64,000 nt of DNA from Vicinamibacterales bacterium (GCA_965243615.1 CBDEVO010000003.1:4058471-4122470); one strand, 5' to 3'; positions 10,055-22,453 are shown, numbered from the stretch's first letter. Numbers and translations: made by a program. The notes: generated from the letters alone by a model not told the origin.

Positions 10055-10339
10055 ATGTCTCTCGAAGCGCTCGGCATGGTGGAAACCAAGGGCCTCGTCG
10101 GCTCGATCGAGGCGGCCGACGCCATGGTCAAGGCCGCCAACGTGCTGCTCGTCGGCAAGGAGTACATCGGCGCCGGCTACGTGACCGTCTTCGTCCGGGG
10201 CGACGTCGGCGCCGTCAAGGCCGCCACCGACGCCGGCGCCGCCGCCGCCCGGCGGGTCGGCGAGCTCGTGGCCGTCCACGTCATCCCGCGCCCCCACGGC
10301 GAGGTGGAGAAGATCCTGCCGCAGGAGCCCGCGCCGTAG
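10055..10339 (+). CDS. Bacterial microcompartment shell protein, BMC-H (PduA/EutM/CcmK type)
   Basis: The translation [30 protein letters not shown]...[37 protein letters not shown] is a near-textbook BMC domain. A GGAGAA Shine-Dalgarno lies 8 nt upstream of ATG 10055. Confidence 0.95.
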
Positions 10340-10416
10340 AACGGCGCGGACTGCTGGAGGGTTGGTTGGGCGCCGAGCGGAGCCGTCAGGCGACGATGGG
10401 CGGGCCAAGTCCGCGA
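10321..10416 (+). repeat. Dispersed intergenic repeat, copy B
   Basis: The sequence is GCGCCGtagaACGGCGCGGACTGCTGGAGGGTTGGTTGGGCGCCGAGCGGAGCCGTCAGGCGACGATGGGCGGGCC. The left hairpin arm overlaps the last codons and stop of the BMC-H gene. Confidence 0.8.
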
Positions 10417-10539
10417 CGCCAAGTGATCGACCCACCGCGCATCCGGCCATGGCTGATCGGGCCCTCCTGAACGGCACGGACCTCGGGTCGAGTCCCGACT
10501 CGCGCACGCCCGGCGCCCGGCCCCCCGGCGCGTCCCGCC

Positions 10540-12339
10540 ATGGCTGACAGCCCCCCCCGCATCGACTCGGACCTCGACTCGATACGCGAGGCGCGGCAGC
10601 TCGCCCGGCGGGCCCGCGACGCCCAGACGCGCCTCGCCGAGCTGACCCAGGAGCAGGTGGACGGCATGGTCGGCGCCGCCGCCGCGGCCGCCGCCACCCA
10701 GGCCGCGCCGTTCGCCCGGATGGCGGTGGAGGAGACCGGCTACGGCAACGAGGCGGACAAGGTCCGCAAGAACCTGTTCGCGGCCGAGACTATTCACCGG
10801 TTCATCGAGCCCATGCGCACCGTCGGCGTCATCCGGCGCCTCGAGGCCGAGCGCGTCGTCGAGATCGCCGAGCCGTTCGGGGTCGTCGCCGCGGTGGTGC
10901 CGTCGACCAACCCCACCTCCACCGCGATCTACAAGATCCTGGTCTGCCTGAAGGCGCGGTGCGCGGTGGTCCTGAGCCCGCATCCCGCCGCCGCCCGGTG
11001 CGTGCGACGGGTCGCCGAGGTGATGACCGCGGCCGCCGTCGACGCGGGCATGCCCGACGACGCGGTCACCTGCATGACGACCGTGACCCTCGAGGGCACG
11101 CAGGAGCTGATGCGGCGCCGCGAGGTCGCCGTCATCCTCGCCACCGGGGGCCTCGGCCTCGTCCGCGCCGCCTACAGCGCGGGGAAGCCGGCCTACGGAG
11201 TCGGGCCCGGCAACGCCCCCGCGTACATCGAACGGACGGCGGACCTGCCCAAGGCGGTGGCCGACATCATCACCGGGAAGACCTTCGACAACGGGCTGCT
11301 CTGCTCGTCGGAGAACTCCGTGGTGGTCGACGAGGCGGTGGCCGGGGAGGCGCGCCGCGAGTTCGAGCGGCAGGGCGGCTACTTCCTGAACGCGAGCGAG
11401 GCCGACCGCCTCGCCGGCGCCCTCGTCACCGCCGACCGCCTGCCCAGCCCGGAGCTGGTCGGCCGTACCGCGGCGGAGATCGCGGCCCGCACCGGTATCG
11501 ACGCGCCGGCGGGGACCCGGGTCCTCGTCGCCCCCCTCGAGGGGGTGGGGCGCGACCACCCCCTGTCGATCGAGAAGCTCTGTCCGGTCCTCTCGTTCTA
11601 CGTCGTCGCCGACTGGCGGGCGGGCTGCGAGCGGTGCATGGAGATCCTGCGCTACGGCGGGATGGGTCACACCATGGCCATCCACTCGCAGGACGAGCAG
11701 GTGATCCTCGAGTTCGGCCTCCGCAAGCCCGCCTTCCGCATCGTCGTCAACACCCCGACGACCCTCGGCTCGATCGGCATGACGACGGGGCTCGACCCCT
11801 CGATGACCCTCGGCTGCGGCGGGCACGGCGGCAACATCACCTCGGACAACATCACCCCGCGGCACCTGCTGAACGTCAAGCGCCTGGCCTGGGAGGTGCG
11901 CCCTGCCGACCGGCCTTCGCCGGAGCGGACCGACGCCGCCGCCCCTTCTCCGGCTACCCCGGCCGCCGGGCGGCCGCGCCCCAGGAGGCTCGACCCCGGA
12001 CTACTCTCCCGCCGAATCGACACGTTCCTCGCCTCGCGGGGCGTCGGCACGGCTCCGCCCTCCGCGGCGGCAGGGCCCCCCGCCCCGGCCGCGGCCCCGG
12101 CGGGGGCGGCCCCGGCGGACGACCCGAGCCCGGCGCCCCCCACTCCCCCCGCCGCATCGACGGCGCCGGCCCGGGTCGACGCGCCGACCGGGCAGAGCGC
12201 CGCCGTCGAGTTCGTCTGCGAGGACGACGTCCGCCAGGCGGTGGAGGTCGGCCGGCGCATCGCCGTCGACGAACGCACGATCATCACCCCCGCCGCCCGC
12301 GACCTCGGAGAGCGGCACGGGGTCTTCGTGGAGGCCTGA
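10540..12339 (+). CDS. CoA-acylating aldehyde dehydrogenase (PduP/EutE-like) with a ~146-aa C-terminal extension
   Basis: The ALDH core reads VVPSTNPTST, GGLGLVRAAYSAGKPAYGVGPGNAP and the catalytic-Cys context FDNGLLCSSENSVVV. From about nt 11899 there is a Pro/Ala-rich linker. The protein ends with AAVEFVCEDDVRQAVEVGRRIAVDERTIITPAARDLGERHGVFVEA. Confidence 0.9.
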   Translation: MADSPPRIDSDLDSIREARQLARRARDAQTRLAELTQEQVDGMVGAAAAAAATQAAPFARMAVEETGYGNEADKVRKNLFAAETIHRFIEPMRTVGVIRRLEAERVVEIAEPFGVVAAVVPSTNPTSTAIYKILVCLKARCAVVLSPHPAAARCVRRVAEVMTAAAVDAGMPDDAVTCMTTVTLEGTQELMRRREVAVILATGGLGLVRAAYSAGKPAYGVGPGNAPAYIERTADLPKAVADIITGKTFDNGLLCSSENSVVVDEAVAGEARREFERQGGYFLNASEADRLAGALVTADRLPSPELVGRTAAEIAARTGIDAPAGTRVLVAPLEGVGRDHPLSIEKLCPVLSFYVVADWRAGCERCMEILRYGGMGHTMAIHSQDEQVILEFGLRKPAFRIVVNTPTTLGSIGMTTGLDPSMTLGCGGHGGNITSDNITPRHLLNVKRLAWEVRPADRPSPERTDAAAPSPATPAAGRPRPRRLDPGLLSRRIDTFLASRGVGTAPPSAAAGPPAPAAAPAGAAPADDPSPAPPTPPAASTAPARVDAPTGQSAAVEFVCEDDVRQAVEVGRRIAVDERTIITPAARDLGERHGVFVEA

Positions 12340-14788: not shown

Positions 14789-16906
14789 TCAGGACCCCGC
14801 GCCGACCGGCTCCGCGACGCTCCTGCCCCGACGAATCAACTCCTCCTGCACCTCGCGCCGCGGCTCGCCGGCGGCGGGGGTTCTGAGGACGTACTCGCCG
14901 TCGGACCCGCAGTCCCACACCGAGCAGTTGTCCTGCTCGTAGGCGGCCAGGATCTCGTCGAGCTCGCGCTTGAGCGCGGGGTCCTCGACGGGGATCACCG
15001 TCTCCACGCGGCCGTTCAGGTTCCGCTTCATCCAGTCCGCGGAGCCGATGAAGTGCTCCGGTCGTCCCGCGTTGACGAACCGGAAGATCCGGCTGTGCTC
15101 GAGGAAGCGCCCCACGACGCCGAACACCCGCACCGTCTCCGACAGCCCGTCCACCCCGGGACGCAGGCAGCACAGCCCGCGGACGTTGAGCCGGACGGGC
15201 ACGCCCGCCCCGCTCGCGTCGTAGAGCTCGTGGATGATCTCGGCGTCCTGGAGCTGGTTCATCTTCGCGTCGATTCCCGATGGCCGCCCCTCCCGGGCGT
15301 GCTCCGCCTCCCGGCGGATCAGCTCGATGAAGCGGCGCCGCATCGACACCGGGGCCACCAGCAGCTTGCTGCTCTCGGGATAGGGAATCACGCCGGTCAG
15401 CGAGTTGAAGACGGTGGCGACGTCGTTGCCGATCGACTCGTCGCAGGTCAGCAGTCCGACGTCCTCGTATATCCGGGCCGTACCCGAGTGGTAGTTCCCG
15501 GTGCCGACGTGCGCGTAGCGCCGCACCCCGTCCGGCTCGTCGCGCACGACGAGGGCGAGCTTGACATGGGTCTTGAGCCGCTCCACCCCGTAGGACACGT
15601 GCACGCCTTCCTTCTCCAGGAAGTTGCCCCACGCGATGTTCGGGGCCTCGTCGAACCGGGCCGTGATCTCGACCAGCACCGCCACCTGCTTGCCCTGCCG
15701 CGCAGCCTCCGCCAGTGCCCGCAGCAGCGGCGAGTCGCGGCTGGTGCGGTAGATCGTCAGCTTGATCGCGAGCACCGCCGGGTCCGTCGCGGCCGAGTTC
15801 AGGAACCGCAGCACGGAGCCGTCGAAGCTCTGGTAGGGGTGGTGCAGCAGGATGTCGCCGCGCGCGATCTCGTCGAAGATCGCCGAGGAGGTGTCGGGCA
15901 GCCGCTGGAGCCGCGGGTGGTCGGCCGGCTCGTGCGGCGGCTGGCGCAGGTCGTCGCGGCCCGGTCCGTCGAAGATCTGAAGGTCGCTCACGCCGAGCGG
16001 CGCCCGCGTGGGATAAACGTCGTCGGGGCCGATGCCGAGCTGGCGGCTCAGCCACGACACCTGATGCTCCGGCATGGTGCTGTCCACCTGCAGCCGGACC
16101 ACCCCCGCGAACCGACGGGCCTTCAGCTCCGAGCTCACCTGCCGGACGATGCTCCCGGGTTCCTCGAGCGGCGCGTCGCCGCCGTCCGCCTGGTCGACGT
16201 CTCCCTCCGCCGCGCGAGTGACCCGGAACACGTGGACCGCGGCGGGCGGCGAGCCGGGATACAGCAGGTCGAGGTTGGCGGCGATGACCTGCTCGATGGG
16301 CACGACGCCGGGGCGGTCGTCCAGGGGAATCCACCGCGGGCGGTTGCCGGGCACCTTGATGCGCACGAAGCGGGTATCGCCGTCGTGCGGAATGAAGACC
16401 GCGAGATTGAGCCCGAGGTTGCTGATGAACGGGAACGGATGCTCCGAATCGACGGCGAGCGGTGTCAGTATCGGCTGGATGTTGCGCGCGAAGTAGGCGC
16501 GCAGGGCCGCGCGCTCGTCCCGCTTCAGGTCGTCGTGCCGCAGGATGGGCAGCCCCGCCCGGGCGAGGTCCGGCACCAGCTCCTCGTGCCACAGCCGGCC
16601 GAGCTCCGCCACCTGGGTGAGGAGCTGGGCGCGGCAGGCGGCCAGCTCGTCGGCCGGGGTGCGGCCGTCGATGGAGAGCTTCTTGGCCCGGTTGTCGATC
16701 TCGCGCTTGAGGCCGCTCATGCGCTTCATGAAGAACTCGTCGTGGAGCATCCCGATGATGCCCGCGAACTTGACGCGCTCGAGCAGGGGCAGATCGGCGC
16801 GGCCGACGAGATGCAGCACCCGGCGGGCGAACCCGAGCCAGCTCAGCTCGCGGCTGAGGAACGCCCGGGCCGGTCCCAGGGCGGCGAGGCGTGCTCTGGT
16901 CGACAC
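14789..16906 (-). CDS. ppk: Polyphosphate kinase 1
   Basis: The translation looks like PPK1 along its full length: FLSRELSWLGFARRVL...RVKFAGIIGMLHDEFFMKR...LHHPYQSF...HVGTGNYH...GSADWMKRNL. Confidence 0.95.
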   Translation of the reverse strand: MSTRARLAALGPARAFLSRELSWLGFARRVLHLVGRADLPLLERVKFAGIIGMLHDEFFMKRMSGLKREIDNRAKKLSIDGRTPADELAACRAQLLTQVAELGRLWHEELVPDLARAGLPILRHDDLKRDERAALRAYFARNIQPILTPLAVDSEHPFPFISNLGLNLAVFIPHDGDTRFVRIKVPGNRPRWIPLDDRPGVVPIEQVIAANLDLLYPGSPPAAVHVFRVTRAAEGDVDQADGGDAPLEEPGSIVRQVSSELKARRFAGVVRLQVDSTMPEHQVSWLSRQLGIGPDDVYPTRAPLGVSDLQIFDGPGRDDLRQPPHEPADHPRLQRLPDTSSAIFDEIARGDILLHHPYQSFDGSVLRFLNSAATDPAVLAIKLTIYRTSRDSPLLRALAEAARQGKQVAVLVEITARFDEAPNIAWGNFLEKEGVHVSYGVERLKTHVKLALVVRDEPDGVRRYAHVGTGNYHSGTARIYEDVGLLTCDESIGNDVATVFNSLTGVIPYPESSKLLVAPVSMRRRFIELIRREAEHAREGRPSGIDAKMNQLQDAEIIHELYDASGAGVPVRLNVRGLCCLRPGVDGLSETVRVFGVVGRFLEHSRIFRFVNAGRPEHFIGSADWMKRNLNGRVETVIPVEDPALKRELDEILAAYEQDNCSVWDCGSDGEYVLRTPAAGEPRREVQEELIRRGRSVAEPVGAGS

Positions 16907-16991
16907 CGCTTCCCCTTTCGATTCGGCGGCTCGCTGTTAATATCTCGCGGGGTTTCCGCTCCCGGAAGCCTTCGATTATAGGACACCCGTC

Positions 16992-18494
16992 GTGCCGAAC
17001 CCGACAGAGACCCTTCCCGAGAACATCGCCGCCGTCGACCTCGGCTCCAACAGCTTCCACATGCTCGTCGCCCGCACCAAGGGCGGTGAGCCGATCCTCG
17101 TCGATCGCCTGCGCGAGATGGTGCAGCTCGCTTCCGGCCTCGCCCCCGACGGACGCCTCAGCCCCGAGTCGCGCGACCGGGCCATCGAGTGCCTTCGACG
17201 GTTCGGGCAGAGGCTGCGCCACATGGATCCCAGCGAGGTCCGGGCGGTGGGCACCAACACGTTGCGGGCCGCGGTCGACGCTGGCGAGTTCCTGGTCGAC
17301 GCGGAGCGGGCGCTGGGACACTCGATAGAGACGATCTCCGGCATCGAGGAGGCCCGCCTGATCTTCCTCGGGGTGACGCGGACCCTGCCCGGGCCGCAAT
17401 CCCGGCGGCTGGTCGTCGACATCGGCGGCGGCAGCACCGAGCTGATCGTGGGTGACGAGGCCCCTCTCGACATGGAGAGCCTCTACATGGGCTGCATCAA
17501 CGTCAGCCGCGCCCATTTCGGCGACGGCCGGCTCACCCCCGAGAACTGGCGGCGGGCCGAGCTCGCCGCGTTGCAGGAGCTGGAGCCGGTCACCGGGCGC
17601 TTCCGCGCGATCGACTGGGAGGAGGCGGTCGGGGCCTCGGGGACCATCCGGGCCATCGACGGCCTCGTCCGCACCTACGGATGGAGCCGGAAGGGGATCA
17701 CGGCCGGCGCCCTGGGCAGGCTGCGCGAGGCCCTGCTGCGGGCGGGACGCGTCGGCCGGCTGAAGCTGGAGGGGCTGAACCCCAGGCGCAGGACGACCAT
17801 CGCGGGGGGGGCGGCGATCCTGTCGGCCCTGTTCGAGGCGCTCGGCATCGAGGTCATGCGACGCTCGGACGGGGCCCTGCGAGAGGGCCTGCTCTACGAC
17901 TCTCTCGGCCGGATCCGCGATCAGGACGTGCGCGAGCGGGGGGTCGAGGCCCTGGCGGATCGCGCGCACGTCGACCGGCAGCAGGCGGCGCGCGTGAAGC
18001 AGACGAGCCTGCTCCTGCTCGCCCAGGTGGCGGACGGCTGGGACCTCGGGAGCCGCAACGCGCGGCAGTTCCTGTCCTGGGCCGCGAACCTGCACGAGAT
18101 AGGTCTCGACATCGCCCACAACCACTACCACCGGCACGGCGAGTACATCGTCGCCCACGCCGACCTGCAGGGATTCTCGCTGCCCGAGCAGCAGGTGCTC
18201 GCGACCCTGGTTCGGTCTCACCGGCGCAAGTTCCCGAGCGAGGTCATCGCCGCCATCCCCCGGAACTGGTCGGCGTGGACCGAGCGGCTCGCGATGCCGC
18301 TGCGCCTGTCGGTGGTCCTGCACCGGAGCCGGAGTCCGCTGCCCCTCCCCCCGATCGAGCTCAGCGCCGCGAAGAACGCCCTGGACCTGCGGTTCCCCCC
18401 CGGGTGGCTCGACCAGCACCCCCTGACGCGGGCCGATCTGGAAACCGAGGCCACCTACCTCCGGGGAGCCGGCTACAAGCTGTCGTTCGGCTGA
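16992..18494 (+). CDS. ppx: Exopolyphosphatase Ppx/GppA
   Basis: The translation reads AAVDLGSNSFHMLVAR...VGTNTLR...GIEEARLIFLGV...VVDIGGGSTELI plus a C-terminal HD-like region. It is divergent from ppk across an 85-nt spacer. Confidence 0.95.
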   Translation: MPNPTETLPENIAAVDLGSNSFHMLVARTKGGEPILVDRLREMVQLASGLAPDGRLSPESRDRAIECLRRFGQRLRHMDPSEVRAVGTNTLRAAVDAGEFLVDAERALGHSIETISGIEEARLIFLGVTRTLPGPQSRRLVVDIGGGSTELIVGDEAPLDMESLYMGCINVSRAHFGDGRLTPENWRRAELAALQELEPVTGRFRAIDWEEAVGASGTIRAIDGLVRTYGWSRKGITAGALGRLREALLRAGRVGRLKLEGLNPRRRTTIAGGAAILSALFEALGIEVMRRSDGALREGLLYDSLGRIRDQDVRERGVEALADRAHVDRQQAARVKQTSLLLLAQVADGWDLGSRNARQFLSWAANLHEIGLDIAHNHYHRHGEYIVAHADLQGFSLPEQQVLATLVRSHRRKFPSEVIAAIPRNWSAWTERLAMPLRLSVVLHRSRSPLPLPPIELSAAKNALDLRFPPGWLDQHPLTRADLETEATYLRGAGYKLSFG

Positions 18495-18556
18495 CAGGGT
18501 TGGTTGGGCCGGCGGAGCCGAAGGCGACGATGGGCGGGCGGCGGCCGGCTCGGGCC
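18495..18556 (+). repeat. Dispersed intergenic repeat, copy C (core only, no 5' hairpin)
   Basis: The sequence CAGGGTTGGTTGGGCCGGCGGAGCCGAAGGCGACGATGGGCGGGCGG lies directly after the ppx stop. Confidence 0.7.
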
Positions 18557-18582
18557 CCTGGCGGTGCGTGTCGGCCGGCCGA

Positions 18583-19086
18583 CTACGGCTCGAGCCGGGC
18601 CAGCATCCGGGGAACGACCAGCCACTGCAGCTCGCCGAGGCCGGGCCGGACCTCGTTCCAACCCGCCGCGTCGAGCCGGATGCACGCGAGGGCGGCGGTC
18701 GGGAACCGGAGGGCCGCTCCGCCGATCAGGATCGAGGCGGTCTCCGAGCAGGCCGGCTCGTGCCCCACGACGAGGAGGGTCTCCACGCCGGGGTCGACGG
18801 CGCGCACGCACGCCAGCACGTCGTCGGGCGACGCGCCGTACAGCTCGGGGACGACGGCGGCCGGGGCCCGCCATCCGCCGGCGTCGGCGGCGTGCCGCAG
18901 GGTCTCGGCCGTGCGGACGGCCGGCGAGCAGAGGACGTGATCGGGAGCCGGCCCCGCCCGCTCGAGGAACCGCCCCATGCACCGGGCCGCCCTCACGCCG
19001 CGCGGGGCGAGCGGGCGCTCGCGATCCGGCCGCGGCGGGGCGTCCCAGCTCGACTTGCCGTGACGGAACAGGAGAATCGTCTTCAC
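18583..19086 (-). CDS. sixA: Histidine phosphatase family protein, SixA-like
   Basis: It has the RHG motif (MKTILLFRHGKSSW...LAPRG) and VVGHEP. Its start forms an ATGA overlap with the parA-like stop (19083-19086). Confidence 0.75.
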   Translation of the reverse strand: MKTILLFRHGKSSWDAPPRPDRERPLAPRGVRAARCMGRFLERAGPAPDHVLCSPAVRTAETLRHAADAGGWRAPAAVVPELYGASPDDVLACVRAVDPGVETLLVVGHEPACSETASILIGGAALRFPTAALACIRLDAAGWNEVRPGLGELQWLVVPRMLARLEP

Positions 19087-19841
19087 GACGGCTCCGGGCG
19101 GGCCTCCTCGAGCCGCCGCACCAGCTCGCCCCAGAGGGCCGCGTAGGCGCGCGCGGCCTCACTCGTCCTCCGGAACGCGCAGAGGGGCTCGCGCCGCGCG
19201 CTCATCTGCTCGACCGCGCTCGAGTACGGAATCCCGGTCGCGAGCATCGGGCACGGCATCTCTTCCGGGGCTTCGCAGATCCGGCGATGCAGGGTCCGGC
19301 GGCGATCGACCATCGAGTAGAACGGCAGCACCCGGACCGCCGCCGGTTCCCGCCGCAGGTGCCGGGCGAGCTGGCGGAGGGTCCGTCGCGACAGCGCCGT
19401 GGGAATGGTCGGCACGATCAGGGCGTCGGCGACCGCGAAGACCGCCTCCGAGGCGAGCGAGATGCCGGGGGCGCAGTCGAGGAAGACGTAGTCGTAGCCG
19501 GCGCCGAGCTCGCGGATTCTGCGGGTGAGGCGCCGGACGTACTTCGGGCTGTCGAGCAGCAGATCCAGGTGGCGGTACGAGAAGTCGGCGGGAAGCAGGT
19601 CCAGCCCCTCGTAGTCCGTCTCGCGGACGTAGCGGGCGAGGGCGCGCTTGCCGCGGACGAGCTTCCTGCCGCCTCCCCGGACCCTCATCTTGACCCGGAA
19701 GCACCAGGTGGCCGCGCCCTGCGGGTCGAGGTCGCAGATGAGGGTCCGCGCCCCCGCCGCGGCGGCGAGCCACGCCAGGTTGACGGCGGCCGACGTCTTC
19801 CCCACGCCGCCCTTGATGTTGTAGGCCGCCAGCACCTTCAT
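19083..19841 (-). CDS. ParA/MinD-family ATPase (orphan ParA-like)
   Basis: The deviant Walker A is MKVLAAYNIKGGVGKTSAAVNLA, followed by LICDLDPQG and DYVFLDCAPG. The start at 19839-19841 forms an ATGA overlap with the upstream CHAD gene. Confidence 0.85.
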   Translation of the reverse strand: MKVLAAYNIKGGVGKTSAAVNLAWLAAAAGARTLICDLDPQGAATWCFRVKMRVRGGGRKLVRGKRALARYVRETDYEGLDLLPADFSYRHLDLLLDSPKYVRRLTRRIRELGAGYDYVFLDCAPGISLASEAVFAVADALIVPTIPTALSRRTLRQLARHLRREPAAVRVLPFYSMVDRRRTLHRRICEAPEEMPCPMLATGIPYSSAVEQMSARREPLCAFRRTSEAARAYAALWGELVRRLEEARPEPS

Positions 19842-21412
19842 TGTGAACCGCGGGCTGCGTCCGGGGCTTTCGGACGGGAGGCGAGGAGCCGGTCGAGGTC
19901 GGCCGCGGTGCGCGCGGTCGCGAACCTGCCGACCTCGTCGGCGAGCCGCCGCCTCGCGGCGGTCTGCCGCGACTCCAGCCGGTCGACCAGGCGCCCCGCC
20001 GTCAGGAGCGCCGGCGCGTCCGCGCCGCCCGCCGCGAGGAGCTCGCGGGCGGTGTCCTGCAGCTCGCCCTGCTGGACCTCGAGATCGTTGTACTCCCCGA
20101 GATCGTCCTGCAGCCGCTTGAGGGAGCGGATGAACGTGTTCACGGGGCCGGCCGCGAACAGGCTGCGGAAGAACTCGAGCAGGTACCGCAGCTTCTTGCA
20201 GGCGATTCGCAGGTCGTGAATGGCTTCGGCCGGGGTCTCCACCGAGAGGCCGCGCCCACGCCTGCGCACTCTCTCGAAGGCCCGCTCGATGCGCTCGCCC
20301 GCCACCTCGCGGACGGGACGGGCGGCGTTCGCGCCGCCGCCGTCGCCGTCGGTCTCGAGAAGGCGCCGCCATTCCCGCTTCAGCCGTCGGTAGCGGGCCG
20401 AGTCGAGCCCCGCAAGCTGCTCCGCGTGCGCAGCCTCCCGCCGGCGCTTCAGGTGCTCGGCCAGCGGGGACAGGTCGCCGCGGGCGGACGGCGGCAGCTC
20501 GGCCTGGTGGCCCCGCAGGCCGAGCAGGTGCACGTCGAGGTCCCGGGGCGGCCCCGTCAACCGGCCGAGCCACGCGAACTCGCCGGCGAAGCGGCGCGTC
20601 GCGGCGTCGTCGAAGACGTCCCTGACCTGTCCCAGGCAGGAACGCGTCCGCCGCACGGCGACCCGGAAGTCGTGCAGGAACTCGGGGTCGAGGTCCGCCC
20701 GGAGCCCCGCCTCGTTGGCCTGCATCATCTCCCACAGCGCGGCGAGGATGCGCTTCACGGCGCGGTCGGTGCGCGCGTCCGGATCGAGGCGCAGCTCGAG
20801 CTTGCCGGTGTAGTCGCCGGGCTGACGACCGACCGCGGCGAGTGCGAGATCGATCTCCGTCCCGGGTCCCGGCGGGAGTCCCAGGTCCTCTTCCACGAAC
20901 CGGCGCACGCCGCGGTAGGCCTGCTCGTATCCCGTCATCCTGGCGAGGCGCAGGATCGTCGGCAGCCGCCGGCGGCGCCGCGTGGAACCGGCCGCGGTCC
21001 CATGATCGAGCGAGACGCGCACCACCGCCTTCTCCCGGCTGTCCACCACGGAGATCCGATCGCTGCGGCGCTCGATCCTCACCACCGGCAGCAGCCGCCG
21101 GATGTCCGTCACCGCCTGAAGCTCGTCCCGGAAGCCGCCCGGGGGCAGATCGCGGGCGAAGTCCGGCGGGGCCGGCAGGGTCGCCCGGTGGCGGCGGCGG
21201 CCGTCGAAATGGTCCCAGCGCAAGTGGCACGACCCGTCCGCGTCGTCGGACAGGACCGTCCCCGCGCCGCCGTAGAGGCGCCAGTCGAACGTGTCGAGAT
21301 AGGTGCGGGCGGAGGCCCGCTTGTCCTCACGCCGGGTCGGGAACCGCTCCGCGAGCCGGGACAGGATGCCGGCCGCGGTCCGCGGCCCGTCGAGCAGGTA
21401 CCTGTGACACAT
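19838..21412 (-). CDS. CYTH-like plus CHAD domain protein
   Basis: The N-terminal CYTH-like region reads YLDTFDWRLYGGAGTVL. The CHAD helices have conserved His/Arg: LHDFRVAVRRTRSCL and IHDLRIACKKLRYLLEFF. The start is set at ATG 21410-21412 (MCHRYLL). Confidence 0.85.
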   Translation of the reverse strand: MCHRYLLDGPRTAAGILSRLAERFPTRREDKRASARTYLDTFDWRLYGGAGTVLSDDADGSCHLRWDHFDGRRRHRATLPAPPDFARDLPPGGFRDELQAVTDIRRLLPVVRIERRSDRISVVDSREKAVVRVSLDHGTAAGSTRRRRRLPTILRLARMTGYEQAYRGVRRFVEEDLGLPPGPGTEIDLALAAVGRQPGDYTGKLELRLDPDARTDRAVKRILAALWEMMQANEAGLRADLDPEFLHDFRVAVRRTRSCLGQVRDVFDDAATRRFAGEFAWLGRLTGPPRDLDVHLLGLRGHQAELPPSARGDLSPLAEHLKRRREAAHAEQLAGLDSARYRRLKREWRRLLETDGDGGGANAARPVREVAGERIERAFERVRRRGRGLSVETPAEAIHDLRIACKKLRYLLEFFRSLFAAGPVNTFIRSLKRLQDDLGEYNDLEVQQGELQDTARELLAAGGADAPALLTAGRLVDRLESRQTAARRRLADEVGRFATARTAADLDRLLASRPKAPDAARGSQ

Positions 21413-21517
21413 CTGTCCGCCTGAATGGTACACCGTCGCCCCGTCGCCGGCTCGCGGCCGATTGCACACCGTTTCACAATCCACGGTCGGCGTGGTAGTA
21501 TCCGAGACGAGAGGTGG

Positions 21518-22453
21518 GTGCTGGTCAAACGCTATTCCTTCATCGTCGCTGATCGTTCGACCGGAGTCGTACACCGCTTCGCCCTGAGTTTCCGCCCGAA
21601 GCTGGTGGCAGCCCTGTTGATCGCTCTCCCCCTCGGGTGGGCCGGCCATGCCGCCTGGCTCGATGGGTCCCGGTTCGATCCGGCCCAGTGGCTGAAGTCG
21701 CCCCGCTGGACGATGAACGACCGGCTGCGCTCGTTCAACGCCCTGCTCCAGTCCGAAATCGACCGCTACGGCACCACCGTCACCGACCTGTCCCGCCGGG
21801 TGGCCGCCCTGCAGCCCGTCGTCGAGGCCCTGCACGATCAGTCCGTCGTCGACCCCGGCGTCAGGCAGGCCATGATGCAGGTGGCGGAGGTCGATCGCTC
21901 GCGGAGGGCGTCGACCCTGCGGACGGTGGCGCAGGCGGCGCCGACCGAGACCCTGAACCTGCTTCACGATCTGCTCGACGTGCTGGAGATCGAGCTCGGG
22001 GTCGTTCAGGGCAACATCCGGCTCCGGCGGGACCTCGCCGCCGCGACGCCGCTCGACCTCCCCGTCCGGGGCCGCATCATGTCCCGGTTCGGGTACCGGA
22101 GCGATCCTTTCACGGACGAGTGGAGGTTTCACGAGGGACTCGACATCGACACCGGATACGGGCAACCGGTCCGGGCGACGGCCGGCGGCCGCGTCGTGGA
22201 AGCCGGGCGCCATGGCAACCACGGCGAGATGATCGAGCTCGACCACGGCTTCGGCCGCCGCACGCGCTACGCTCATCTGTCGGAGTTCGCCGTCCGCGTG
22301 GGCGAAGATGTCGAGCGGGGGCAGGTCATCGGCTACGCCGGCGCCACCGGCCGCGCCACCGGATCGCACATCCACTACGAGGTCCTGGTCGGCAACCGGC
22401 CCATGAACCCGCTCCGGCTGGTGTTCGCCTCCGGCGGCGTCTCGGCGGACTGA
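21518..22453 (+). CDS. M23 family metallopeptidase
   Basis: The translation reads FHEGLDIDTGYGQPVRATAGGRVV...HGEMIELDHGFG..TRYAHLS...GATGRATGSHIHYEV. The start is uncertain. GTG 21518 follows GAGAGG, and ATG 21425 would leave only 12 nt to the divergent CHAD gene. Confidence 0.85.
   Translation: MLVKRYSFIVADRSTGVVHRFALSFRPKLVAALLIALPLGWAGHAAWLDGSRFDPAQWLKSPRWTMNDRLRSFNALLQSEIDRYGTTVTDLSRRVAALQPVVEALHDQSVVDPGVRQAMMQVAEVDRSRRASTLRTVAQAAPTETLNLLHDLLDVLEIELGVVQGNIRLRRDLAAATPLDLPVRGRIMSRFGYRSDPFTDEWRFHEGLDIDTGYGQPVRATAGGRVVEAGRHGNHGEMIELDHGFGRRTRYAHLSEFAVRVGEDVERGQVIGYAGATGRATGSHIHYEVLVGNRPMNPLRLVFASGGVSAD

What the first reader, a model, noticed from the sequence alone, without database searches (positions are those of the whole stretch)
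14789..21412. ParA-type ATPase embedded in a polyphosphate gene cluster (ppk, ppx, CYTH-CHAD, ParA-like, SixA-like): candidate polyP-granule positioning module
ppk (14789-16906, -) and ppx (16992-18494, +) are divergent. Immediately beyond ppx lies a three-gene minus-strand operon joined by ATGA overlaps:
- a CYTH+CHAD protein (19838-21412)
- a ParA/MinD ATPase with the deviant Walker A KGGVGKT (19083-19841)
- a SixA-like histidine phosphatase (18583-19086)

CHAD domains are experimentally known to bind polyphosphate and to decorate polyP granules. ParA-family ATPases are known to position plasmids, chromosomes and protein organelles, for example McdA for carboxysomes.

This ParA-like gene has no parB or plasmid context and is translationally coupled to a CHAD protein. 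That is the arrangement expected for a dedicated granule-spacing system, with the CHAD protein as the cargo adaptor. To my knowledge no such dedicated system has been characterised.
Basis: partly seen in the sequence, partly recalled or inferred. Interest (0 to 1): 0.65.

Follow-up and report, generated by a model that had tools for sequence, protein, structure and literature searches.

The report
ParA ATPase paired with polyphosphate-binding protein
A small ParA-type "positioning" ATPase is encoded as an overlapping gene pair with a polyphosphate-binding CHAD protein here and in at least eight bacterial phyla, which makes the pair a concrete but untested candidate for the unknown machinery that organises polyphosphate storage granules.

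Summary
ppk1 and ppx are divergent, and next to ppx lies a minus-strand operon: CHAD protein, ParA-like ATPase (KGGVGKT), SixA-like phosphatase. The stop/start overlaps are ATGA and GTGA, not two ATGA.

The CHAD-ParA pair is a conserved module, not a chance adjacency.
- A P0005-like CHAD gene lies directly upstream in 71 of 81 related loci from at least 8 phyla.
- Most pairs overlap by 4 or 1 nt.
- In 301 Acidobacteriota genomes, all 17 carriers of the ATPase have a CHAD gene, and 14 have it adjacent.

The ATPase family is a separate, very basic clade of Soj-like ParAs. No ParB, centromere-like repeat or microcompartment gene accompanies it. Some members are fused to a CYTH domain.

The partner is orthologous to CtCHAD of Chlorobium tepidum, whose polyphosphate complex is solved. 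Its four validated binding residues are conserved, and the Chlorobaculum gene is also followed by this ATPase. The "CYTH" part is real only as a fold and lacks the catalytic motif.

An ATP-driven granule-organising system is the best reading, but it is untested. Two of the canonical Soj DNA-binding residues are missing, so the surface the ATPase binds (DNA or polyphosphate) is open. I found no paper that describes such a system.

The parts
14789..16906 (-). ppk1, polyphosphate kinase 1 (705 aa)
   Evidence: Pfam PP_kinase_N, PP_kinase, PP_kinase_C_1 and PP_kinase_C; TIGR03705 707 bits against a cut-off of 466.
16992..18494 (+). ppx, exopolyphosphatase of the Ppx/GppA family (500 aa), divergent from ppk1
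   Evidence: Pfam Ppx-GppA 2.5e-69 and Ppx-GppA_III 8.3e-48. NCBIfam equivalog scores are below their cut-offs.
18583..19086 (-). SixA-like histidine phosphatase (167 aa), last gene of the operon
   Evidence: His_Phos_1 8.9e-09. TIGR00249 sixA scores 60.8 bits, below the 74.5 cut-off. RHG motif at residues 8-10. A homologue lies within one gene of the pair in about 9 unrelated loci. SixA is listed as a typical polyphosphate-operon neighbour in PMC12995831.
19083..19841 (-). ParA-like ATPase (252 aa) of a distinct CHAD-linked family
   Evidence: AAA_31 1.3e-27, and no NCBIfam model reaches its cut-off. The AlphaFold2 model has pLDDT 85.8, with Soj as best structural match at TM 0.85-0.88. The family is monophyletic against other ParAs.
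19794..19814 (-). Deviant Walker A, KGGVGKT (residues 10-16), including the signature lysine K10
   Evidence: Read directly. K10, G11, G12, V13, G14, K15 and T16 are invariant in 21 family members, as are D37/D39 (Walker A') and D122 (Walker B).
19644..19697 (-). Family-specific basic loop, residues 49-66 (RVKMRVRGGGRKLVRGKR)
   Evidence: 6-9 Lys/Arg (at least 7 in 20 of 21 members) and 0-1 acidic residue out of 18 positions across 21 members. The loop is absent from the genome's two canonical ParAs. Model confidence is lower here, pLDDT 65-74.
19838..19841 (-). ATGA overlap of the CHAD stop and the ParA start
   Evidence: In 66 orthologous pairs, 39 have a 4-nt overlap and 8 a 1-nt overlap.
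19083..19086 (-). GTGA overlap of the ParA stop and the SixA-like start
19838..21412 (-). CHAD partner protein (524 aa): degenerate CYTH/TTM-like domain plus CHAD domain
   Evidence: CHAD 9.8e-63. AlphaFold2 model with pLDDT 91.9 and pTM 0.90. It is the only CHAD gene in the genome.
20798..21412 (-). N-terminal CYTH/TTM-like domain (residues 1 to about 205), without the ExExK motif
   Evidence: Foldseek hits to YgiF 5A60, thiamine triphosphatases, class IV adenylate cyclases and SaTTM, all at probability 1.00 and target TM 0.5-0.7. No Pfam CYTH hit in 37 orthologues. The N-terminus reads MCHRYLLDG.
19877..20797 (-). CHAD domain with C-terminal helices (residues about 206-512), orthologous to crystallised CtCHAD
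   Evidence: The family profile hits 3E0S, 6QV7 and 6QVA at E 7e-92 over positions 205-518. Foldseek target TM 0.92, rmsd 1.9 A. The polyphosphate-binding H253/R256/R260/R296 of CtCHAD (PMC6537752) align with H247/R250/R254/R290, which are invariant or nearly so.

Best explanation
The CHAD protein and the ParA-like ATPase form a conserved two-component module that acts on polyphosphate granules. In this genome it is embedded in a ppk1-ppx-sixA cluster.

Shown:
- The two genes are co-inherited and translationally coupled across phyla.
- The partner belongs to the same family as CtCHAD and keeps the residues shown to bind polyphosphate.
- The ATPase keeps every ParA/MinD nucleotide motif and has a Soj-like predicted fold.

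Inferred:
- The CHAD protein coats the granule through its CHAD domain.
- It recruits the ATP-bound ATPase dimer and switches it off, probably through its degenerate CYTH-like domain and/or its basic C-terminal tail.
- The ATPase binds an extended polyanionic surface in its ATP form. The nucleoid is the most likely surface.
- Cycles of binding and partner-stimulated hydrolysis then distribute, separate or anchor granules, so that they do not coalesce and both daughter cells inherit them. This is the way McdA/McdB handles carboxysomes.

The SixA-like phosphatase, and the CYTH and NUDIX genes seen in other genomes, are accessory polyphosphate-metabolism genes. They are not part of the core pair.
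For: 1. Synteny.
- All 4 distant homologues looked up have a 520-760 aa CHAD gene directly upstream.
- 71 of 81 genome loci with room upstream do too.
- 14 of 17 carriers in an even sample of 301 Acidobacteriota have it adjacent. All 17 have a CHAD gene, against 104 of 301 genomes overall.
- In the window's own order, all 23 carriers have the long CHAD type adjacent. The other 12 CHAD-bearing genomes of the sample have only a short CHAD and no such ATPase.

2. Coupling. 47 of 66 pairs overlap by 4 or 1 nt.

3. Family specificity.
- The clade is separated from other ParAs by a branch of 1.73 substitutions per site, SH-aLRT 100. Unlinked members are nested inside it.
- The nearest non-family ParAs (E about 1e-44) have no CHAD neighbour.

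4. Cargo.
- The partner is orthologous to CtCHAD, with its four binding residues conserved.
- A Chlorobaculum protein 98% identical to CtCHAD is followed 3 nt later by this ATPase, and ppk1 lies upstream.

5. Domain fusions.
- At least 7 representative clusters are ParA-CYTH fusions. One that was checked is still preceded by a CHAD gene.
- There is one possible CHAD-ParA fusion next to ppk1.

6. Polyphosphate context. ppk1, ppx, ppk2, CYTH, NUDIX or a SixA-like gene lies within 7 kb in about a quarter of unrelated loci.

7. Not a DNA-partition system.
- The genome's two ParB genes sit beside two other, canonical ParAs.
- No ParB lies in any of 86 family loci.
- There are no iterated repeats.
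- Only 10 of 72,556 plasmid records carry a relative. At least five of the ten records are replicons larger than 290 kb, and at least one has the CHAD gene next to it.

8. The genes are functional: all ATPase motifs are invariant and dN/dS is 0.18-0.25.

9. The field has no known ATP-driven system for these granules.
Against:
- The canonical Soj DNA-binding patch is only half kept. The Arg matching TtSoj R182/BsSoj R189 is invariant. The positions of TtSoj R208 and R211 (BsSoj R215/R218, the latter needed for nucleoid binding) are a near-invariant Tyr and a variable non-basic residue. The genome's two ordinary ParAs keep IPRNVRL or ITKNVRL.
- The partner has no N-terminal basic peptide of the kind that stimulates ParA ATPases in ParB, ParG and McdB.
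- Neighbours are mostly enzymes, which fits a metabolic role as well as a positional one.
- About 12% of family members have lost adjacency, including a Methylococcales clade.
- The family is patchy: 17 of 301 Acidobacteriota carry it. It is therefore not a general requirement for granules.
- Other bacteria space granules without ParA: AlgP in P. aeruginosa, and no ParA dependence in S. elongatus.
- Reported deletions of CHAD proteins elsewhere have little effect on granule formation.
Confidence: 0.55

Rival explanations
1. The ATPase is a metabolic or assembly regulator and not a positioning motor. In this reading it is an ATP-dependent switch on the granule surface. It would recruit, localise or gate polyphosphate enzymes (PPK1/PPK2, PPX, CYTH triphosphatase, NUDIX, SixA-like phosphatase), or nucleate granules at a defined site. 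Other ParA/MinD members act on partner complexes in this way: BcsQ, FlhG/FleN and MipZ.
For: - The conserved neighbours beyond the pair are enzymes.
- The ATPase is repeatedly fused to a sequence-recognisable CYTH domain (Pfam CYTH match), a family of triphosphate-acting enzymes.
- In this window it is translationally coupled to a phosphatase.
- The canonical DNA patch is incomplete.
- BcsQ and FleN are good structural matches, TM 0.73-0.79.
Against: - The only invariant partner is the non-enzymatic CHAD protein, whose CYTH-like domain has lost the catalytic motif.
- Some loci hold the pair alone, with no enzyme gene nearby.
- Closest sequence and structure relatives are Soj-type partition ATPases.
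Confidence: 0.25
2. The ATPase patterns on polyphosphate itself and not on DNA. Its ATP-bound dimer would bind the granule surface through the family-specific basic loop and basic helix. The CHAD protein would turn it over, giving a dynamic coat that controls granule fusion, fission or size.
For: - The family is unusually basic, with median pI 9.9 and net charge +13. The two canonical ParAs of the same genome have pI 5.5 and 9.4 and net charge -4 and +4.
- The conserved loop at residues 49-66 has 6-9 Lys/Arg (at least 7 in 20 of 21 members).
- Two canonical DNA-patch residues are lost.
- The ATPase is fused to CYTH, a phosphate-chain-binding domain.
Against: - A basic surface binds DNA equally well.
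- The Arg matching BsSoj R189 is kept.
- Archaeal pNOB8 ParA uses residues in the equivalent N-terminal region (R52, K58) for DNA binding.
- No ParA/MinD member is known to use an inorganic polymer as its surface.
Confidence: 0.15
3. The ATPase is an ordinary chromosome, plasmid or other-cargo ParA that merely lies next to polyphosphate genes. One example would be a partner for the nearby microcompartment shell gene at 10055-10339.
For: - The fold and closest relatives are Soj-like.
- RefSeq annotates an orthologue with the GO term 'chromosome segregation' by inference.
- A BMC-H gene lies 9 kb away.
Against: - Adjacency to CHAD is conserved across phyla, while everything else around it varies.
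- No ParB or BMC-H homologue occurs in any related locus outside the window's own genus.
- The genome has two separate canonical parAB pairs.
- There are no centromere-like repeats.
- The family is nearly absent from plasmids.
Confidence: 0.03

Closest known systems
McdA/McdB carboxysome positioning system (ParA/MinD family)
   Same: - A small ParA-type ATPase is encoded next to a cargo-bound adaptor, with no ParB or centromere.
- The cargo is a cytoplasmic, non-DNA body.
- The predicted fold matches McdA at TM 0.79-0.81.
   Different: - The adaptor is a large folded CYTH-like/CHAD protein and not a small, disordered McdB.
- The profile match to McdA is weak (1.5e-11).
- The ATPase is far more basic and lacks two canonical DNA-patch residues.
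- Nucleoid binding, partner stimulation and any positioning phenotype are untested.
Soj/ParA of chromosomal ParABS systems (T. thermophilus Soj 1WCV/2BEK, ParA 8RAY, H. pylori Soj 6IUB)
   Same: - These are the best sequence hits (E 1.6e-31 to 3e-20) and the best structural hits (TM 0.84-0.88).
- Same length class, same deviant Walker A with signature lysine, same Walker A' and Walker B.
- The Arg matching BsSoj R189 is kept.
   Different: - No ParB or parS.
- IPYSSxVE replaces IP(K/R)(S/N)V(K/R)L.
- The basic loop 49-66 and a basic helix (DRRKxLHR) are specific to this family.
- It forms a separate clade on a long branch.
CtCHAD of Chlorobium tepidum (PDB 3E0S, 6QV7, 6QVA) and CHAD 'phosins' such as PptA
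   Same: - The partner's CHAD part is orthologous: E 7e-92, target TM 0.92.
- The validated polyphosphate-binding residues are conserved.
- Phosins localise to granules in vivo (cited).
   Different: - Published work used only the CHAD fragment.
- It mentions neither the N-terminal CYTH-like domain nor the downstream ATPase gene.
YgiF of E. coli (CYTH triphosphatase fused to CHAD, PDB 5A60)
   Same: It has the same two-domain architecture at the fold level.
   Different: - The partner here lacks the ExExK motif and gives no Pfam CYTH match, so it is probably not an enzyme.
- YgiF has no ParA partner (my own knowledge, not checked here).
AlgP of P. aeruginosa, and PhaM/PhaF/PhaH for PHB granules (nucleoid tethers)
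   Same: These are the only proteins so far tied to spacing of storage granules.
   Different: - They are histone-like DNA-binding tethers with no ATPase.
- The 2025 review states that it is unknown whether energy is spent on polyphosphate granule localisation.

Membership tests
ParA/MinD (deviant Walker A) ATPase superfamily | Deviant Walker A KGGxGK[ST] with N-terminal signature lysine | tested here: met
   KGGVGKT at residues 10-16, invariant in 21 family members.
ParA/MinD (deviant Walker A) ATPase superfamily | Walker A' (switch I aspartates) and Walker B aspartate | tested here: met
   D37, D39 (DLDPQ) and D122 (LDCAP) are invariant.
ParA/MinD (deviant Walker A) ATPase superfamily | Characteristic fold | tested here: met
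   AlphaFold2 model with pLDDT 85.8; Foldseek TM 0.85-0.88 to Soj and 0.79 to MinD and McdA.
ParA/MinD (deviant Walker A) ATPase superfamily | ATP-dependent dimerisation and partner-stimulated ATPase activity | not testable with these tools
   Needs biochemistry.
ParABS DNA-partition system (Soj/ParA type Ib) | Cognate ParB gene adjacent and a parS/centromere | tested here: not met
   ParB_N hits lie only beside two other ParAs of the genome. No ParB occurs in 86 family loci. There are no iterated repeats.
ParABS DNA-partition system (Soj/ParA type Ib) | Continuous basic non-specific DNA-binding patch (HpSoj K199/K227/K230/K247 = TtSoj R182/R208/R211) | tested here: inconclusive
   R181 (= TtSoj R182) is invariant. 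Y206 and a variable non-basic residue replace R208 and R211. Other family-specific basic residues exist.
MinD-type membrane ATPases | Conserved C-terminal amphipathic membrane-targeting helix | tested here: not met
   Sequences end at or shortly after the last core helix, and the tails are variable and unconserved.
McdAB-like cargo-positioning system (function-level class) | ATPase gene linked to the gene of a cargo-bound adaptor | tested here: met
   71 of 81 loci and 14 of 17 genomes; overlapping stop and start in 47 of 66 pairs.
McdAB-like cargo-positioning system (function-level class) | Adaptor binds the cargo | tested here: met
   Met by orthology only. The partner matches CtCHAD, which was crystallised with polyphosphate, and the binding residues are conserved. 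Granule localisation of this protein itself is untested.
McdAB-like cargo-positioning system (function-level class) | Adaptor contacts the ATPase and stimulates it; the ATPase forms gradients on the nucleoid; loss mispositions the cargo | not testable with these tools
   Only indirect support exists: ParA-CYTH fusions and one possible CHAD-ParA fusion.
CHAD domain (PF05235) | Pfam model above the gathering score, and the two four-helix-bundle fold | tested here: met
   212.6 bits against a cut-off of 25.6. Target TM 0.92 to 6QVA.
CYTH / triphosphate tunnel metalloenzymes (PF01928) | Beta-barrel tunnel fold | tested here: met
   Foldseek probability 1.00 to YgiF, ThTPase, CyaB-type cyclases and SaTTM.
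CYTH / triphosphate tunnel metalloenzymes (PF01928) | N-terminal ExExK metal-binding motif and a match to the family model | tested here: not met
   The N-terminus reads MCHRYLLDG. 0 of 37 orthologues match Pfam CYTH at E 0.1. Two long CHAD proteins of the phylum that are not linked to ParA do have ExExK.
SixA phosphohistidine phosphatase (TIGR00249) | Score above the equivalog cut-off; RHG catalytic motif | tested here: inconclusive
   60.8 bits against a cut-off of 74.5. RHG and the GHEP histidine are present. It is a branch-1 histidine phosphatase, and its substrate is unknown.

The most novel reading that the evidence does not exclude
The ATPase uses polyphosphate itself, and not DNA, as the surface on which it cycles. 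Its ATP-bound dimer would bind the granule through the family-specific basic loop and helix, and the CHAD/CYTH-like partner would reset it. This would be the first ParA/MinD-family machine that patterns on an inorganic polymer. It would control granule fusion, fission or size from the granule surface.
Probability: 0.15. Interest if true: 0.9.

Novelty: new variant of a known kind. Interest (0 to 1): 0.72.

Why it matters
Polyphosphate granules are found in many bacteria, and in several species they are evenly spaced or deliberately inherited. Reviews and papers up to 2026 state that the positioning proteins are unknown in most organisms. They also state that it is unknown whether energy is spent on the process.

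This gene pair makes that question directly testable. It is a defined ATPase plus a defined polyphosphate-binding adaptor, and it is present in cultivable and partly tractable bacteria: Chlorobaculum, Paracoccus, and Acidithiobacillus as drawn in PMC10892726.

It also reframes the best-studied CHAD protein. CtCHAD was crystallised as a fragment of a two-domain protein whose gene is coupled to this ATPase.

If the ATPase turns out to work on polyphosphate and not DNA, the known range of ParA/MinD surfaces would grow beyond DNA and membrane.

Tried and rejected
- **Microcompartment cargo.** A BMC-H gene and an aldehyde dehydrogenase lie 9 kb away, but no BMC-H homologue occurs in any related locus. 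Rejected.
- **DNA partition.** No ParB in family loci, no repeats, and almost no plasmid copies. Rejected.
- **Long CHAD architecture as a ParA marker.** I considered whether the CYTH-like N-domain plus CHAD layout is itself diagnostic of ParA linkage. That holds only within the window's order. Across the phylum, many long CHAD proteins lack the ATPase. Some of them have a true ExExK CYTH, and others are degenerate and paired with a metallophosphoesterase.
- **Pfam CYTH search on the partner.** No match in any of 37 orthologues. Only the fold search showed the relationship.
- **Promoter and terminator scan.** No minus-strand sites define the operon ends. Uninformative in 72% G+C DNA.
- **Weak fusions.** The single CHAD-ParA fusion comes from one 7.7 kb contig and has a truncated CHAD. 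The ParA-S6PP fusion comes from a 2.3 kb contig at about 2.6-fold coverage. I give little weight to either.
- **Model coordinates.** They were not available, so I could not map the basic loop relative to the dimer and DNA faces.

Full report
**1. What is in the window**

The window has 72% G+C. By its closest relatives it comes from a Vicinamibacterales bacterium of the Acidobacteriota.

| Gene | Coordinates | Evidence |
|---|---|---|
| ppk1 | 14789-16906 (-) | all four PPK1 domains |
| ppx | 16992-18494 (+) | Ppx-GppA plus domain III |
| SixA-like phosphatase | 18583-19086 (-) | His_Phos_1; RHG motif; below the SixA equivalog cut-off |
| ParA-like ATPase | 19083-19841 (-) | AAA_31; KGGVGKT |
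| CHAD protein | 19838-21412 (-) | CHAD 9.8e-63 |

These assignments rest.
- ppk1 and ppx are divergent, with 85 bp between them.
- The CHAD stop and the ParA start overlap as ATGA. The ParA stop and the SixA start overlap as GTGA.
- The flanking genes are housekeeping: a comM-like gene, a cell-wall hydrolase, an M23 peptidase and secA.
- The genome has a single CHAD gene.
- It has two other ParA genes, each followed by a ParB gene, at distant sites.
- Within the genus the three operon genes have dN/dS of 0.18-0.37, and ParA is the most constrained.

**2. The CHAD-ParA pair is a conserved module**

The ATPase has thousands of relatives of 245-260 residues at 55-67% identity in public data.

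Adjacency:
- Four distant relatives were looked up, and all have a 520-760 residue CHAD gene directly upstream. The wider context varies: ppk1/ppx/ppk2/CYTH/NUDIX/histidine phosphatase, a phosphate-uptake cluster, or nothing related.
- A scan of one genome per species with the family alignment found more than 595 relatives. I analysed the best 80 loci.
- Of 81 loci with room upstream, 71 carry a full-length homologue of the window's CHAD protein immediately upstream on the same strand.
- In 66 pairs the stop and start overlap by 4 nt in 39 cases and by 1 nt in 8.

The loci come from Acidobacteriota, Pseudomonadota (alpha, beta, gamma, zeta), Thermodesulfobacteriota, Actinomycetota, Planctomycetota, Gemmatimonadota and Rhodothermota. 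Chlorobiota is added.

Sampling less tied to hit score gave the same picture:
- In 41 relatives of the window genome, all 23 carriers of the ATPase have a long, high-scoring CHAD gene next to it. The other 12 CHAD-bearing genomes of that sample have only a short CHAD and no such ATPase.
- In an even sample of 301 Acidobacteriota, 17 genomes carry the family, at E 4e-72 or better. The next hit is at 1e-42, so the boundary is clear.
- All 17 carriers have a CHAD gene, against 104 of 301 genomes overall, and 14 have it adjacent.
- In one exception (strain Mor1) the CHAD gene still sits with sixA and ppx exactly as in the window. The ATPase gene has moved 1.2 Mb away.

On a tree the family is one clade, separated from six other ParAs by a long branch with SH-aLRT 100. 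Members without an adjacent CHAD gene are nested inside it, which implies several secondary losses of linkage. One loss covers a Methylococcales clade. The nearest non-family ParAs have no CHAD neighbour, and one of them has a ParB.

**3. The cargo side**

- A profile of 37 partner proteins hits PDB 3E0S, 6QV7 and 6QVA at E 7e-92 over positions 205-518. These are the CHAD domain of Chlorobium tepidum.
- That domain was crystallised with polyphosphate, and mutagenesis showed that it binds through H253, R256, R260 and R296 (PMC6537752).
- These residues align with H247, R250, R254 and R290 of the window protein. They are invariant or nearly so in the family.
- The AlphaFold2 model (pLDDT 91.9) superposes on 6QVA at target TM 0.92.
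- The full-length Chlorobaculum protein is 522 residues and 98% identical to the crystallised fragment. Its gene is followed 3 nt later by a member of this ATPase family (45% identical to the window's, E 2e-75), and ppk1 lies upstream. The 2019 paper does not mention this neighbour.
- The N-terminal ~205 residues have a CYTH/TTM fold. They give no Pfam CYTH match in any of 37 orthologues and lack the ExExK motif. This domain is therefore probably a binding or interaction domain and not an enzyme.

**4. The ATPase side**

- All nucleotide motifs are invariant.
- The model is Soj-like, with TM 0.85-0.88.
- The best solved relatives by sequence are a ParA (8RAY, 1.6e-31) and T. thermophilus Soj. 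McdA is distant at 1.5e-11.
- No curated NCBIfam model reaches its cut-off. RefSeq calls an orthologue simply 'AAA family ATPase'.

The family differs from ordinary ParAs in three ways.
1. **Charge.** Median pI is 9.9 and net charge +13. The two canonical ParAs of the same genome have pI 5.5 and 9.4.
2. **Basic loop.** A conserved loop at residues 49-66 has 6-9 Lys/Arg in 18 positions (at least 7 in 20 of 21 members), and there is a basic helix DRRKxLHR.
3. **DNA-binding patch.** I used the residue map for HpSoj, TtSoj and BsSoj in PMC6393308 and the profile alignment to TtSoj. The Arg matching BsSoj R189 is invariant. The positions matching BsSoj R215 and R218 are a near-invariant Tyr and a variable non-basic residue: IPYSSxVE in place of IPRNVRL.

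There is no conserved C-terminal amphipathic helix of the MinD kind.

**5. Independent links to polyphosphate**

- Searching 1.84 billion representative proteins gave 805 hits at E 1e-30 or better. All of the best 150 score 3e-72 or better.
- Among those 150, at least 7 clusters are fusions of this ATPase to a C-terminal CYTH domain that Pfam recognises. One of them is still preceded by a 524-residue CHAD gene.
- One contig has an apparent CHAD-ParA fusion right after ppk1. This is weak evidence, because it is a single contig and the CHAD part is truncated.
- In Paracoccus aestuarii DSM 19484 the annotated operon is CHAD, ATPase, CYTH, NUDIX.
- Unbiased clustering of all ORFs in 82 loci shows the most recurrent neighbours beyond the pair: ppk1 in 10 loci, the SixA-like gene in 10, ppx in 9 and ppk2 in 7.

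**6. Rivals tested**

- **DNA partition.** No ParB in any family locus, no iterated repeats, and only 10 of 72,556 plasmid records with a relative, at least five of them replicons larger than 290 kb.
- **Microcompartment cargo.** No BMC-H homologue in related loci.
- **Chance.** Excluded by section 2.

**7. Mechanism**

*Shown:* co-inheritance and translational coupling; a partner of the polyphosphate-binding kind; an intact ParA/MinD ATPase.

*Inferred:* the CHAD protein marks the granule; the ATPase cycles between an ATP-bound, surface-bound dimer and a released form under control of the partner; this cycling organises granules in space.

*Open:*
- whether the surface is DNA or polyphosphate;
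- which part of the partner contacts the ATPase. Candidates are the CYTH-like domain, suggested by the fusions, and the basic C-terminal tail, which has a median of 3 Lys/Arg in the last 15 residues;
- whether the output is spacing, anchoring, size control or enzyme recruitment.

**8. Literature**

- Reviews and primary papers from 2022 to 2026 name only AlgP for polyphosphate granule spacing. They state that other mechanisms are undefined and that any energy dependence is unknown.
- A 2024 paper draws folD-ppk-parA-CHAD as conserved in Acidithiobacillus but describes ParA only as a plasmid-partition protein.
- SixA, CHAD, PPX and NUDIX are listed as typical polyphosphate-operon neighbours in a 2026 paper. 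ParA is not on that list.
- Full-text searches for a ParA system for these granules found nothing else.

**9. Earlier notes of this scan**

Other agents reached the same reading on other genomes. Those notes are not independent evidence, and I re-derived the conservation here.

**10. Verdict**

The link of this ATPase family to polyphosphate is strong: I put it at about 0.85-0.9. I put the specific claim of ATP-driven spatial organisation of granules, with the CHAD protein as adaptor, at about 0.55. It is a new variant of the ParA/MinD cargo-handling theme, and it makes a long-standing question testable.

Noticed in passing
P0248, P0249, P0254, P0269, P0270, P0271, P0316; L130:4427-7515: Fusion proteins of this ParA-like ATPase with a C-terminal CYTH domain recognised by Pfam, 504-544 aa, in at least 7 clusters at 50% identity. 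In L130 the fusion gene is still preceded by a 524-aa CHAD gene with a 1-nt overlap.
   Followed up: partly
L061, L068, L073, L080, L083, L089, L102 (Methylococcales); L132:67-1752: A Methylococcales sub-clade of the family has lost the CHAD neighbour. There the gene lies next to a glycogen-phosphorylase-like gene or next to dtd. One low-coverage contig encodes a fusion of the ATPase to a sucrose-6F-phosphate phosphohydrolase domain. This may mean the ATPase was re-used with carbohydrate storage, or it may be coincidence.
   Followed up: no
L115-L119 (other Acidobacteriota): A different subfamily of long CHAD proteins, also with a degenerate CYTH-like N-domain, is consistently preceded by a ~240-aa metallophosphoesterase gene. 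In three of the five loci (L115, L116, L118) an ABC-transporter ATPase gene follows it. No ParA-like gene is present.
   Followed up: no
L121:951-4585 and L122:2920-3723 (Acidobacteria bacterium Mor1): ppx, sixA and CHAD are arranged as in the window, and sixA now overlaps CHAD by 4 nt. The ParA-like gene has moved 1.2 Mb away and remains intact.
   Followed up: partly
outside the window: genome contig C3:4033824-4034931, about 24 kb upstream of window position 1; also C3:673703-674943: Two canonical parA-parB pairs lie in one chromosome-sized contig. The second pair sits only about 24 kb from the window and may mark an integrated element or a second partition system.
   Followed up: no
window 10055-12339: A stand-alone BMC-H shell gene (BMC domain 4e-28) and an aldehyde dehydrogenase. 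They are not conserved next to the ParA-like family elsewhere.
   Followed up: partly
window 21413-21640: The divergent intergenic region between the CHAD gene and the M23 peptidase gene has lower G+C. It holds the only sigma-70-like match of the scanned stretch, on the plus strand at 21473-21501. No minus-strand promoter-like site was found for the CHAD operon.
   Followed up: no
L133:4484-7651 (Paracoccus aestuarii DSM 19484, 296-kb replicon): A cultured type strain carries the annotated operon CHAD, 'AAA family ATPase', CYTH, NUDIX. Several Paracoccus marcusii replicons also carry the ATPase. These are possible experimental hosts.
   Followed up: partly
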